Shown here piece after piece: positions 21,019 through 22,461 of a stretch of DNA of 45,485 bases. The notes under the pieces were generated by a model, which searched no databases, was not told the DNA's origin, and saw only the letters and a program-made list of their open reading frames with translations. The DNA comes from a virus (taxonomy: Duplodnaviria > Heunggongvirae > Uroviricota > Caudoviricetes): the IMG/VR virus record IMGVR_UViG_2869970738_000006, positions 1 through 45,485 of that record; one strand, given 5' to 3'. A program made the translations under genes and the position numbers. The first letter of the stretch is position 1. Every line of letters starts with the position of its first letter.

Positions 21019-22461
21019 CTTTATTCGTACCCCTTATAATGGGGTGTTAGCCAGCCAGACCCGGCATGATTACTGCCCCCAGTCGTCCATGATCCGGGGG
21101 GTGATGTCACCGGGTCTGGTGGGGCGCTGGTAACCGCTAATAGGGGTCAGGTCAGGCACTTTTGCCGGGACCGTCTGTAACGTGGATGCCGGTACCTGCT
21201 CCCCGTGGTTATCTGGTTAACCCATATACAAGGGAGACAGAATGACCGAATCCAGCGATTACGAATCCGTCCAGATCTTTATCGGCGTTGATGTCGGTAA
21301 AGATACGCATCACGCTGTTGCCATTAATCGTTCAGGTAAACGCCTGTTCGATAAAGCATTACCCAACGACGAAAACAAACTCAGGTCGCTAATATCTGAC
21401 CTGAAACAACATGGTCAGATACTGCTGGTTGTTGATCAGCCAGCTACCATCGGTGCGTTACCTGTCGCCGTTGCCCGCTCAGAAGGAGTCCTTGTCGGAT
21501 ACCTCCCTGGACTGGCCATGCGCCGCATAGCCGACTTACACGCCGGTGAAGCTAAAACTGATGCTCGTGACGCTGCCATCATTGCCGAAGCTGCCTGTAC
21601 CCTGCCTCACGCGCTACGCACGCTGAAACTGGCTGACGAGCAAATCGCCGAACTCTCCATGCTCTGCGGCTTCGATGATGATCTTGCCGCACAGACAACG
21701 CAGGCCAGCAACCGTATCCGCGGCCTTCTGACCCAGATACATCCGGCACTGGAGCGCGTTCTCGGTCCGAGACTTGAGCACCCGGCGGTACTCGATCTTC
21801 TCCAGCGATATCCCTCACCAGAAAAACTCGCTTCGCTGGGTGAGAAGAAGCTGGCAGCCCAGCTCTGCAAACTTGCGCCTCGTCTGGGTAAACGCCTTGC
21901 AGCAGACATAGCTCAGGCACTGGCCGAACAAACCGTCGTCGTTCCCGGCACGAATGCCGCTGCCGTAGTACTGCCACGTCTGGCACTCCAGCTCATCACG
22001 CTGCGTAAGCAAAGAGACGAGGTGGCGCTTGAGGTAGAACAGCGAGTTCTTGCTCACCCTCTTTACCCGGTCCTGACCAGTATGCCCGGAGTCGGTGTCA
22101 GGACCGCAGCCAGACTCCTCACCGAGGTCGCCTGCCGCGCCTTCGCCTCTGCCGCACATCTCGCTGCTTATGCTGGCCTTGCGCCGGTAACTCGGCGATC
22201 CGGCTCGTCAATACGCGGTGAGCATCCCTCGCGACGGGGTAATAAAGCTCTCAAACGGGCGTTGTTCCTGTCGGCCTTCGCCGCGCTCAGGGATCCGCTC
22301 TCCAGGGCTTACTACACCCGCAAAATGAGTCAGGGAAAACGACACAATCAGGCGCTTATCGCCCTGGCGAGACGACGCTGCGACGTTCTGTTCGCCATGA
22401 TGCGCGACGGGACTTTTTATACCCCGCAGGGGTCATAACATGCTTGACAACTTAATAGGGG
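21019..22461 (+). mobile_element. IS110-family insertion sequence (~1.44 kb) with ~222-bp 5' leader and very short 3' end; boundaries approximate
   Basis: Sits exactly between the two yecD halves; transposase 21242-22438. Confidence 0.65.
21242..22438 (+). CDS. IS110-family (DEDD) transposase
   Basis: 398-aa ORF, N-terminal [13 protein letters not shown] and C-terminal GNKALKRAL motifs. Confidence 0.9.

What the first reader, a model, noticed from the sequence alone, without database searches (positions are those of the whole stretch)
21019..22461. Second, different IS110-family element splitting yecD, with a ~222-bp structured 5' leader
yecD is cleanly split after codon ~73 by a ~1.44-kb element whose transposase starts 222 bp from the left junction and ends ~25 bp from the right junction. 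This is the opposite layout to the element at 12.6-14.0 kb. The leader contains several short palindromes (e.g. ccccttataatgggg, ggtgatgtcacc) and is the expected place for a bridge-RNA-type guide in the IS110 subgroup. The two yecD flanks give a precise target sequence.
Basis: partly seen in the sequence, partly recalled or inferred. Interest (0 to 1): 0.65.

Follow-up and report, generated by a model that had tools for sequence, protein, structure and literature searches.

The report
ISEc20 insertion with bridge RNA leader
The gene yecD is interrupted by a copy of the catalogued insertion sequence ISEc20, whose 227-base leader looks like a typical IS110-type bridge RNA that reads both the element's own ends and a run of C's in the target, so the finding is correct but already known.

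Summary
yecD (starts 20796) is split exactly after codon 73 by a 1450-bp element at 21015-22464. It has a 227-nt left end, a 398-aa DEDD/Tnp recombinase (21242-22438) and a 26-nt right end.

The element is ISEc20 (ISfinder cluster ISEc20/ISSfl4). RefSeq annotates it as such, and 1120 of 5426 complete E. coli genomes carry a full copy.

The left end is conserved in 64 distinct relatives from Burkholderiales and Microbacteriaceae. It folds as a 5' hairpin plus two stem / internal loop / hairpin modules, with 21 pairs showing compensatory changes. Segment lengths match the IS621 bridge RNA almost one for one.

The donor loop carries AUAGGGGU, which equals the right-end tip, and GUAACGU(G), which is the reverse complement of the inferred right-end/left-end junction. 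Eleven relatives change both the guide and the right end from G to A.

The target loop carries ACUGCCCCC and GGGGGGU. These match the G+C5 | C5 flanks seen at about 70 insertion sites, including yecD.

A TTGACA-17-TACTTT promoter exists only across the inferred circle junction.

Durrant et al. 2024 already list this cluster as encoding a left-end bridge RNA. The verdict is therefore "already known", with low interest. The one unusual detail is the lack of a flanking direct repeat: donor core AC versus target core CC.

The parts
20796..21014 (+). yecD 5' part (codons 1-73). The last 9 nt, GATGCCCCC, are the left target.
   Evidence: Alignment to intact yecD in L001. Pfam Isochorismatase, residues 1-52 of the model.
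21015..22464 (+). ISEc20 copy, 1450 bp (GTTAC...AATAGGGGCAC). There is a 1-nt boundary ambiguity, so 21014-22463 is equally possible.
   Evidence: 99.7-99.9% identical over its full length to elements annotated ISEc20 in RefSeq. The same 1450 bp occurs in 20 other contexts. Empty sites were compared.
21015..21241 (+). Left end (LE), 227 nt non-coding leader. The inferred bridge RNA spans roughly 21029-21200.
   Evidence: Conserved in 64 distinct relatives. Structure covariation.
21017..21022 (+). TACTTT, the -10 half of the promoter that would be completed only in the circular form.
   Evidence: TTGACA-17 nt-TACTTT across the inferred RE-LE junction. Spacing of 17-18 nt is conserved in 39 distinct junctions. 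No sigma-70-like promoter was found in the integrated copy.
21029..21045 (+). 5' stem-loop (ACCCC / GGGGU).
   Evidence: Helix 1: 3 of 5 pairs have compensatory changes (AU / GC / UA at the closing pair). It is longer in actinobacterial relatives.
21050..21124 (+). Target-binding module. The outer stems are 21050-52/21122-24, 21054-64/21110-20 and 21067-70/21106-09. They enclose an internal loop and a 12-nt mini hairpin at 21082-21093.
   Evidence: Helix 2: 18 pairs, 98.9% of cells paired, 7 pairs with compensatory change. Segment lengths equal those of the IS621 target-binding loop.
21072..21080 (+). Left target guide (LTG), ACUGCCCCC. It has the same sense as the left target.
   Evidence: It matches yecD GATGCCCCC at 7 of 9 positions. 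At 71 distinct sites the last 4 flank bases are C in 66-71 cases, and G precedes the C run in 39 of 63.
21096..21104 (+). Right target guide (RTG), GGGGGGU at 21096-21102, plus a 2-nt handshake-type extension GA at 21103-21104.
   Evidence: It is antisense to A/C + C6. The right flank begins with exactly C5 in 27 of 55 distinct sites, following the element's terminal AC. The position in the loop is as in IS621.
21126..21199 (+). Donor-binding module: outer stems, an internal loop and a 23-nt hairpin at 21150-21172.
   Evidence: Helices 4 and 5: 11 of 15 pairs have compensatory changes.
21140..21147 (+). Left donor guide (LDG), AUAGGGGU. It has the same sense as the right-end tip ATAGGGGC.
   Evidence: A 9-nt sense match, TAATAGGGG, to the right end (shuffle P about 0.003). 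Eleven relatives have GGGA in both the guide and the right end, and none is discordant in that direction.
21177..21185 (+). Right donor guide (RDG), GUAACGU at 21177-21183, plus GG at 21184-21185.
   Evidence: GUAACGUG is the reverse complement of CAC|GTTAC, the inferred circle junction (8 nt, shuffle P about 0.005). It is invariant in 64 relatives.
21242..22438 (+). Recombinase gene, 398 aa. The domains are DEDD RuvC-like (residues 14-168) and Tnp (277-358).
   Evidence: Pfam 7.6e-48 and 7.3e-22. The PDB best hit is the IS621 transposase, E 4e-14, and the SGSS serine motif aligns. This copy has Cys at position 119, where 81 of 82 relatives have Arg.
22439..22464 (+). Right end (RE), 26 nt. 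It holds the -35 box TTGACA at 22444-22449 and the left-donor site AATAGGGGCAC at 22454-22464.
   Evidence: Conserved as TTGAC(A/G)-N-ATAGGG(G/A)CAC in relatives.
22465..22811 (+). yecD 3' part. It begins TCCCCGC, which is the right target and is one C shorter than in intact yecD.
   Evidence: Alignment. Pfam Isochorismatase, model positions 81-175.

Best explanation
This is a copy of the catalogued IS110-group insertion sequence ISEc20 (ISSfl4 cluster), inserted into a C5-T-C5 tract of yecD.

Inferred mechanism. The 227-nt left end encodes a bridge RNA of about 170 nt built like that of IS621: a 5' hairpin, a target-binding module and a donor-binding module. After excision, the right and left ends would join as ...TTGACAACTTAATAGGGGCAC|GTTACTTTATT.... 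This junction would create a sigma-70 promoter (TTGACA, 17 nt, TACTTT) that would start transcription at about 21029.

Donor loop. AUAGGGGU has the sense of the right-end tip, so it can pair with that tip's bottom strand. GUAACGU can pair with the top strand of AC|GTTAC.

Target loop. ACUGCCCCC matches the left half of a C-rich site, and GGGGGGU is complementary to the right half. The preferred target is therefore (T)G-C5 | C5.

The DEDD/Ser recombinase then exchanges strands between circle and target.

What is shown directly:
- the identity of the element and its boundaries;
- the conserved, covarying structure of the leader;
- the guide/donor and guide/target matches, and one guide/donor covariation;
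- the junction promoter motif.

What is inferred by analogy with IS621:
- that the RNA is made, binds the recombinase and directs recombination;
- the exact crossover.

My preferred reading of the crossover is donor core AC and target core CC. The left junction keeps the target's CC and the right junction keeps the donor's AC, so no direct repeat is left.
For: Identity:
- Megablast finds full-length matches at >=99% in 1120 of 5426 E. coli genomes, annotated 'IS110-like element ISEc20 family transposase'.
- Pfam domains and the IS621 transposase as best solved relative agree.

Boundaries:
- Intact yecD was compared.
- For a phage tape-measure gene, the flanks joined after removing exactly 1450 bp are 233/233 identical to 638 genomes.
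- The same 1450 bp occurs in 20 contexts.

Structure:
- 64 distinct left ends align.
- For the bridge-like structure, 93.5% of cells are paired, 21 pairs have compensatory changes and 0 of 500 shuffles reach this. The covariation score is 0.259, against <=0.097 for partners slid by 1-3 columns.
- Segment lengths match IS621: LTG 9, linker 1, hairpin 12, linker 2, RTG 7, handshake 2; LDG 8, linker 2, hairpin 23 versus 22, linker GU, RDG 9, handshake 2 (against the numbers quoted).

Donor guides:
- There is a 9-nt sense match and an 8-nt antisense match (P about 0.003 and 0.005).
- The G-to-A change is coupled in guide and right end in 11 relatives from two host phyla.

Target guides:
- TG precedes the C run in 5 of 17 ISEc20 sites (P 0.003).
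- The LTG class with U+C6 sits next to longer C runs (Mann-Whitney P 0.001).
- The modal right flank is C5 (27 of 55).

Promoter: the junction promoter is conserved, and the integrated copy has none.

Prior prediction: Durrant et al. 2024, supplementary table, lists 'ISSfl4 LE IS110 ISEc20;ISSfl4'.
Against: - No expression or binding data exist for this element, and Rfam 15 has no matching family.
- Guide diversity in the clade is low. A permutation test of LTG positions 1-4 against each element's own flank is not significant (P 0.20).
- For yecD alone, the LTG match (7 nt, P 0.15) and the RTG match are not better than chance in a C-rich leader.
- LTG and RTG are complementary to each other, and the single-sequence minimum-energy fold pairs them. 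A purely intramolecular reading of those segments is therefore possible.
- The IS621 hallmark of an identical core dinucleotide on both sides is absent.
- The LDG register is shifted by one nucleotide relative to IS621 under the AC-core reading.
- This copy carries R119C at an otherwise invariant residue and may be inactive.
Confidence: 0.87

Rival explanations
1. The leader is only a structured 5' UTR that controls recombinase expression, for example by translational attenuation or as a binding site for the protein. Target choice for C runs would then be made by the protein alone.
For: - Before 2024 the IS110 non-coding ends were thought to regulate expression (text quoted).
- The C5 and G6 segments can pair with each other.
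- The last 45 nt of the leader can fold so that the GGGAG ribosome-binding site pairs with CUCCC.
- The covariation between LTG positions 1-4 and the flanks is not significant.
Against: - It does not explain why two loop segments reproduce the element's own tips in the sense/antisense pattern of bridge RNAs.
- It does not explain why guide and right end change together in 11 relatives.
- It does not explain why segment lengths match the IS621 bridge RNA.
- The C5/G6 columns never vary, so nothing supports their pairing.
Confidence: 0.07
2. The C-rich flanks belong to the element, or the leader is partly host sequence, so the real boundaries differ and the apparent guide/target match is an artefact.
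For: Every copy is flanked by C runs, which could be mistaken for conserved termini.
Against: - Intact yecD already contains C5-T-C5.
- The uninterrupted tape-measure gene equals the joined flanks exactly.
- Beyond the C runs, the flanks are unrelated between sites.
Confidence: 0.02
3. The crossover is not at AC/CC. One alternative is that the core is CA, encoded in both loops (LTG ...CA, RTG/RDG ...UG), with an ideal target CTG-C4-CA-C6. Another is that the exchange has no stagger at all. The rest of the bridge RNA model would stand under either alternative.
For: - Under a CA core the LDG covers donor positions 1-8 exactly as in IS621.
- Natural sequences CTGCCCCACCCCCC (rtcB allele, L096) and CTGACCCCACCCCGG (repeat beside L002) resemble such an ideal target.
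- Relative L022 has AC on both sides.
Against: - The register of G + C5 directly before GTTAC fits LTG ending at the last host base.
- The C5 mode of the right flank fits a 7-nt RTG starting at the A.
- Handshake logic fits AC. GG after the RDG pairs with target CC, and G(U/A) after the RTG pairs with donor (G/A)C.
- In two ISEc20 copies the right end is GGGGCCC. The A is therefore the variable position, as expected for the first core base.
Confidence: 0.35

Closest known systems
ISEc20 / ISSfl4 (ISfinder; IS110 family, IS110 group)
   Same: The element is 99.7-99.9% identical in nucleotides over all 1450 bp to elements that RefSeq annotates as ISEc20. The supplement of Durrant et al. 2024 places ISEc20 and ISSfl4 in one cluster with the bridge RNA predicted in the left end. 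ISEc20 is listed among the IS of Shigella sonnei 53G.
   Different: This copy has two private substitutions, V12I and R119C. It sits in yecD, a site not occupied in any of 5426 complete E. coli genomes.
IS621 and its bridge RNA (Durrant et al. 2024; Hiraizumi et al. 2024)
   Same: - A DEDD + Tnp(Ser) recombinase.
- A long left end and a short right end, with no terminal inverted repeats.
- A promoter split across the RE-LE junction.
- An RNA with a 5' hairpin plus two stem / loop / hairpin modules.
- The same order, strand sense and near-identical lengths of LTG, RTG, LDG, RDG and handshake positions.
- A shared GCAUG motif before the LTG and a GU linker before the RDG.
   Different: - The proteins are related only distantly; only the Tnp domain aligns significantly.
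- The target is a C homopolymer tract rather than a REP-type sequence.
- There is no identical core dinucleotide on both sides (left CC, right AC) and hence no direct repeat.
- LTG and RTG are complementary to each other.
- The IS621 RNA sequence used was recalled from memory. It was checked against the residue identities quoted.
IS110 of Streptomyces coelicolor and relatives (ISSer1, ISBma3 and others)
   Same: They are in the same recombinase cluster as ISEc20 and ISSfl4 in supplementary file 4 of Durrant et al. 2024. The clade found here spans Burkholderiales and Microbacteriaceae at 73-82% protein identity, with the same ends and guides.
   Different: These elements were not examined individually here.
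IS1111-group elements with a right-end bridge/seek RNA (for example ISSso6 in this window)
   Same: The recombinase family is the same, and guidance is by RNA according to Durrant et al. 2024.
   Different: The layout is opposite. ISSso6 at 12.5-14.1 kb has a left end of about 85 nt and a right end of about 300 nt. ISEc20 has 227 and 26 nt.

Membership tests
ISEc20 (ISfinder / RefSeq name) | Near-identity of the whole element to the named IS. | tested here: met
   Hits cover 100% at 99.7-99.9% identity and are annotated ISEc20 family transposase. There are 0-6 differences per 1450 bp against 17 copies compared base by base.
IS110 family | Recombinase with an N-terminal DEDD RuvC-like domain and a C-terminal Tnp domain with a conserved serine. 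| tested here: met
   PF01548 7.6e-48 and PF02371 7.3e-22. KTDARDA and SGSS motifs are present, and the Tnp domain aligns to IS621. The second acidic residue is Asp (VVDQP) rather than Glu.
IS110 family | No terminal inverted repeats and sequence-specific insertion. | tested here: met
   Tips are 8/20 identical in inverted orientation, and the longest inverted match is 6 nt and not terminal. About 70 distinct sites all lie in C runs.
IS110 group (as opposed to IS1111 group) | Left end much longer than right end, with the RNA in the left end. | tested here: met
   LE is 227 nt and RE is 26 nt. The structured conserved RNA is in the LE. The element is listed as LE / IS110 in the supplement of Durrant et al. 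2024.
Bridge RNA | Two internal loops, each flanked by stems, with conserved secondary structure. | tested here: met
   One search gives 41 pairs, 93.5% paired and 21 with compensatory change, and both controls are far lower.
Bridge RNA | Donor loop: 5' side has the same sense as the right-end tip, and 3' side is antisense to the core plus the left-end start. | tested here: met
   TAATAGGGG (9 nt) and GTAACGTG (8 nt). Guide and right end covary G to A in 11 relatives.
Bridge RNA | Target loop: 5' side has the same sense as the left target, and 3' side is antisense to the right target. | tested here: met
   ACUGCCCCC against flanks (T)G-C5, and GGGGGGU against flanks C5 after AC. For yecD, 7 of 9 LTG positions match, and the RTG gives 5 Watson-Crick pairs plus 1 G-T out of 7. 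Covariation is weak because the guides hardly vary. Only C-run length (P 0.001) and the preceding base follow the guide class.
Bridge RNA | Sigma-70 promoter reconstituted across the RE-LE junction of the circle. | tested here: met
   TTGACA-17-TACTTT across the inferred junction, with 17-18 nt spacing conserved in 39 distinct junctions. No promoter is found in the integrated copy. This is motif-level evidence only.
Bridge RNA (IS621 type) | The same core dinucleotide in donor and target, present on both sides of the integrated element. | tested here: not met
   The left junction reads ...CC|GTTAC and the right junction ...GGGGCAC|C.... Empty-site comparisons show +1450 bp with only 1 nt shared. 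Only relative L022 has AC on both sides.
Bridge RNA | The RNA is expressed, binds the recombinase and is required and programmable for recombination. | not testable with these tools
   No expression or biochemical data were available.

The most novel reading that the evidence does not exclude
In the ISEc20 clade the donor and target cores would differ (donor AC, target CC). The right target guide would be written to match the donor's core rather than the target's, so the strand-exchanged state is the better paired one. Insertion would then leave no direct repeat. In all but three of the roughly 70 sites examined, the left junction keeps the target base and the right junction keeps the donor base. 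The exceptions are L022 and the two GGGGCCC copies. This would be a built-in bias towards insertion, or an exchange with a stagger of at most 1 nt. It would also explain why one fixed pair of guides aimed at G/C homopolymer tracts is kept across two phyla.
Probability: 0.25. Interest if true: 0.45.

Novelty: already known. Interest (0 to 1): 0.22.

Why it matters
For annotating this window, the finding explains the yecD pseudogene as an insertion of a named IS. The organism appears to be a Shigella-type lineage, because the window also holds ISSso6, and by eye IS1.

For the bridge RNA field, it gives a hand-checked assignment of all four guides, the handshake positions and the junction promoter of a common enterobacterial IS. 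Its natural target is a C10-like homopolymer tract.

It also flags a clade in which the IS621 rule of identical cores on both sides does not hold.

None of this changes the known picture of how IS110 elements work.

Tried and rejected
- Rfam. A scan of 20500-23000 at E<=1 found nothing, so no curated family covers this RNA.
- Single-sequence fold. The fold of 21029-21241 (z -2.9) pairs the C5 of the LTG with the G6 of the RTG, and RNAalifold does the same. I rejected this as the working structure because those columns never vary and they coincide with the guides.
- RNAalifold also paired the LDG with the RDG region. I rejected this for the same reason.
- Permutation test. LTG positions 1-4 against each element's own flank gave P 0.20, so there is no usable signal. 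The guides are too uniform and the register slips by one C.
- Exact-match test for yecD alone. LTG gave P 0.15 and RTG was no better than chance. The case for the target loop therefore rests on pooled sites.
- CA core, and L096 as the ancestor of the rtcB insertion. A conservative exchange would have left CCCCAC|GTTAC at the left junction, which is not seen.
- L096 as a simple excision scar. The numbers of C's do not fit.
- Terminal inverted repeats. None were found.
- The look-up of encoding contigs with the window's exact protein returned only two contigs, both with the same yecD insertion. More sites were therefore taken from RefSeq E. coli records.
- The 2026 preprint on half-match recombination could not be opened.
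Full report
OBSERVATION

The window around the finding shows aspS, then yecD starting at 20796. A foreign segment follows, then the rest of yecD ending at 22811. By eye, the left end of IS1 follows.

Intact yecD from an E. coli chromosome (L001) reads GATG-C5-T-C5-GCTAAAG. In the window the segment GTTAC...AATAGGGGCAC (21015-22464, 1450 bp) lies between the first C5 and the T. The break therefore falls exactly after codon 73.

The boundary can be moved by one base because a C is shared.

The window's right flank has T-C4 rather than T-C5, so one host C is missing. 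Another assembly with the same insertion (L083) has T-C5.

The single long ORF (21242-22438, 398 aa) starts 227 nt from the left junction and ends 26 nt from the right one.

IDENTITY

- The ORF has the two Pfam domains of IS110-family recombinases: PF01548 at 7.6e-48 and PF02371 at 7.3e-22.
- Its best solved relative is the IS621 transposase (E 4e-14).
- Megablast of the element against 5426 complete E. coli genomes finds full-length copies at >=99% identity in 1120 genomes. RefSeq annotates them as 'IS110-like element ISEc20 family transposase'.
- Seventeen copies compared base by base differ from the window copy at 0-6 positions.
- ISEc20 is one of the IS reported in Shigella sonnei 53G.
- No complete E. 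coli genome has the yecD::ISEc20 junction.
- The junction occurs in two assemblies with the identical protein. It also occurs at the same position in S. flexneri SFBU1023 and strain ECMA0423 (L003, L004).

BOUNDARIES AND EMPTY SITES

- The same 1450 bp is found in about 20 unrelated contexts.
- For a phage tape-measure gene, the flanks joined after removing exactly these 1450 bp are 233/233 identical to 638 genomes. This insertion added 1450 bp and duplicated nothing.
- For dgcE, the joined flanks of the S. flexneri copy (CCAG-C4 | C5-AACAG) equal an existing frameshifted allele without the IS (L097). The intact allele has CCAGA-C9.
- For rtcB, no genome has the joined flanks. The closest alleles read CCCCGCCC and CCCCACCCCCC at the site.
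- Differences of one or two bases are confined to the C runs. These runs vary between strains and are error-prone in assemblies.

THE LEADER IS CONSERVED AND STRUCTURED

A scan of one genome per species found 80 loci encoding relatives at 73-99% protein identity. Most are from Burkholderiales and Microbacteriaceae.

Sixty-four distinct left ends align from the first base. All begin GTTAC and are preceded by a C run.

I wrote a structure with the following parts, in left-end numbering where position 1 is window 21015:
- a 5' hairpin (15-19 / 27-31);
- a first module (36-38/108-110, 40-50/96-106, 53-56/92-95, and a small hairpin 68-70/77-79);
- a second module (112-113/184-185, 115-117/180-182, 120-122/176-178, and a hairpin 136-139/155-158 with 141-143/150-152).

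On the alignment, 93.5% of cells form standard pairs and 21 of 41 pairs show changes on both sides. No shuffle out of 500 reaches any of the five measures. Sliding the 3' partners by 1-3 columns drops the covariation score from 0.259 to at most 0.097.

RNAalifold finds the same outer stems.

GUIDES FOR THE DONOR

In IS621 the bridge RNA has four guide segments:
- the left target guide (LTG) and left donor guide (LDG), which have the sense of the top strand of the left halves;
- the right target guide (RTG) and right donor guide (RDG), which are antisense to the core plus the right halves.

In ISEc20 the 5' side of the second loop is AUAGGGGU (21140-21147). With the two preceding bases it repeats the right-end sequence TAATAGGGG. 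The last position is a U where the DNA has C, which would give a G-U pair with the bottom strand.

The 3' side is GUAACGU(G) (21177-21184). This is the reverse complement of CAC|GTTAC.

In dinucleotide-preserving shuffles of the leader, matches this long occur with frequencies 0.003 and 0.005.

Eleven relatives carry GAUAGGGA in the guide, and all eleven have CATAGGGACAC at the right end. They fall in a Duganella group and a Pseudoclavibacter/Microbacteriaceae group whose leaders otherwise differ. All relatives with GGGG in the guide and a complete right end have GGGG at the right end. One relative, L036, has GGGU in the guide against GGGG at the right end. This coupled change is direct guide/donor covariation.

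GUIDES FOR THE TARGET

The 5' side of the first loop is ACUGCCCCC (21072-21080) and the 3' side is GGGGGGU (21096-21102).

- Left flank. At 71 distinct insertion sites, the four host bases next to GTTAC are C in 66-71 cases. The base before the C run is G in 39 of 63 sites (binomial P 3e-6 against one third). In ISEc20 itself, TG precedes the run in 5 of 17 sites (P 0.003).
- Guide class. Microbacterium relatives whose guide reads GGUCCCCCC sit next to longer C runs (mean 6.1 against 4.3, Mann-Whitney P 0.001). In 4 of 8 of these, the run is preceded by T.
- Right flank. It begins with exactly five C's in 27 of 55 distinct sites. Together with the element's terminal AC, this is the complement of GGGGGGU.
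- yecD. It fits at 7 of 9 LTG positions (GATGCCCCC). For the RTG it gives 5 Watson-Crick pairs and one G-T out of 7 (CC-TCCCC).

On its own the yecD match is not better than chance in a C-rich leader (P 0.15 and no better than chance). A permutation of guide positions 1-4 against the flanks is also not significant (P 0.20). The target assignment therefore rests on the pooled sites and on the architecture.

ARCHITECTURE COMPARED WITH IS621

Taking the segment limits printed in Hiraizumi et al. 2024, the two RNAs compare as follows.

| Segment | IS621 (nt) | ISEc20 (nt) |
|---|---|---|
| LTG | 9 | 9 |
| linker | 1 | 1 |
| hairpin | 12 | 12 |
| linker | 2 | 2 |
| RTG | 7 | 7 |
| handshake | 2 | 2 |
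| LDG | 8 | 8 |
| linker | 2 | 2 |
| hairpin | 22 | 23 |
| linker | 2 (GU) | 2 (GU) |
| RDG | 9 | 9 |
| handshake | 2 | 2 |

Both have GCAUG before the LTG.

I recalled the IS621 RNA sequence used for this table from memory. It reproduces every residue identity quoted.

PROMOTER

The integrated copy has no sigma-70-like promoter between 20900 and 22560.

Joining the right end to the left end gives TTGACA, 17 nt, TACTTT. In 39 distinct relatives the same arrangement holds, with TTGAC(A/G/T), 17-18 nt, and TACTTT, TACTAT or TACCTT.

Transcription would then start at about 21029, the first base of the 5' hairpin. The RNA would be about 170 nt, against 177 nt for IS621.

In the chromosome the element has the same orientation as yecD. 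Read-through from the yecD promoter is therefore possible, but this was not tested.

THE CROSSOVER

IS621 is flanked by the same CT on both sides. ISEc20 is not.

The left junction is ...CC|GTTAC and the right junction is ...GGGGCAC|C.... Only one base is shared.

Four readings give the same circle (cores AC, CA, GT or CG). I favour donor core AC and target core CC, for these reasons:
- The most frequent left flanks (G + C5, 22 sites; G + C4, 24 sites) place the last LTG base opposite the last host base.
- A 7-nt RTG starting at the A explains the C5 mode on the right.
- The two bases after the RDG (GG) can pair with target positions 6-7 (CC). Those after the RTG (GA, or GU in relatives) can pair with donor positions 6-7 (GC or AC), as the handshake rule requires.
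- The A is the one terminal base that varies. Two ISEc20 copies end GGGGCCC.

Under this reading the LTG specifies CC and the RTG specifies AC for the same two target positions. The genomic junctions always show the top-strand products.

The LDG register is then one base off the IS621 pattern, and a CA core remains possible. This point needs experiments.

STATE OF THIS COPY

The leader and both ends are identical to other copies.

The protein differs from all other ISEc20 copies at two positions. One of them, Cys119, replaces an Arg that is present in 81 of 82 relatives, 11 residues after the KTDARDA motif. The copy may be impaired.

COMPARISON AND NOVELTY

The element is catalogued, and its family mechanism was described in 2024.

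The supplement of Durrant et al. lists the cluster 'ISEc20;ISSfl4' as IS110 group with the bridge RNA in the left end. A full-text search for ISEc20 and ISSfl4 found no paper that treats its RNA specifically.

What this work adds:
- the explicit guide map;
- the homopolymer target;
- conservation of one guide set across two phyla;
- the absence of a shared core repeat.

Noticed in passing
window 12532-14200: The other IS110-family element is ISSso6 (RefSeq name). It has a recombinase ORF at 12617-13792, a left end of about 85 nt and a right end of about 300 nt or more. It lies inside an IS66-family tnpC.
   Followed up: partly
window 22860-23620: About 50 bp after the yecD stop codon, the sequence ggtgatgctgccaacttactgat... 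and the ORFs at 22916-23191 and 23236-23613 look like IS1 (InsA/InsB). It apparently cuts the next gene, a DUF72 gene in L001. I recognised this from memory and did not test it.
   Followed up: no
window 21596-21598 (codon 119) and 21275-21277 (codon 12): These are private substitutions of this copy. Cys119 replaces Arg, which is found in 81 of 82 relatives. Ile12 replaces Val, which is found in 72 of 82. They are shared only with the two assemblies that carry the same yecD insertion.
   Followed up: yes
window 22465-22469: The host C run to the right of the insertion is one C shorter (T-C4) than in intact yecD (T-C5). In S. flexneri the same site reads C6, with the T replaced by C. The tracts next to the element vary in length.
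   Followed up: partly
L009, L010 (S. flexneri / ECMA0423) and L049 (Cupriavidus laharis), right flank: In these loci, from two unrelated hosts, the right flank starts with GTTAC, the first five bases of the element's own left end, instead of a C run. This may reflect insertion next to a donor-like site or a remnant of a tandem copy.
   Followed up: no
L012, L031, L037, L055, right ends: Four relatives have a right end cut short inside ATAGGGGCAC and joined directly to a long C run (for example CATAG|C7 and CATAGGG|C9). This is as if the junction had slipped within the G run.
   Followed up: no
L087 and L090 (E. coli O157:H7 PV15-279; 2014C-3011), element position 1449: The right end reads GGGGCCC instead of GGGGCAC, so the A of the proposed AC core is replaced by the target-type C. 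The left junctions are normal.
   Followed up: partly
L007 (S. flexneri, dgcE copy) and L032 (Enterobacterales MAG), left-end position 88: The U at the 3' end of the right target guide is G, giving seven G's. This would match a CC target core instead of AC.
   Followed up: no
L096 (rtcB-family gene, E. coli PEC408), and L002 2060-2100 near yecA: The sequences CTGCCCCACCCCCC and the tandemly repeated GGACTGACCCCACCCCGGTAGACG resemble the ideal target spelled by both target guides, including a central A. The L002 copy of ISEc20 sits in one unit of that repeat. I could not settle whether these are preferred targets, ancestral alleles or scars.
   Followed up: partly
L086 (E. coli O145:H28 RM12581), element 3' end: There is a 31-bp tandem duplication inside the 3' end of the recombinase gene, and the annotated product is longer. 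Its right flank also contains a fragment of another ISEc20 3' end.
   Followed up: no
window 21196-21241: In the single-sequence fold, the ribosome-binding site GGGAG (21233-21237) pairs with CUCCC (21199-21203). This is a possible translational control of the recombinase. It is not obviously conserved in relatives.
   Followed up: no
L066-L081 (Microbacterium relatives), downstream of the recombinase gene: No TTGAC...ATAGGGG right end is found within 90 nt of the stop codon in most of these loci. Their right ends are longer, or lie beyond the stretch I looked at.
   Followed up: no
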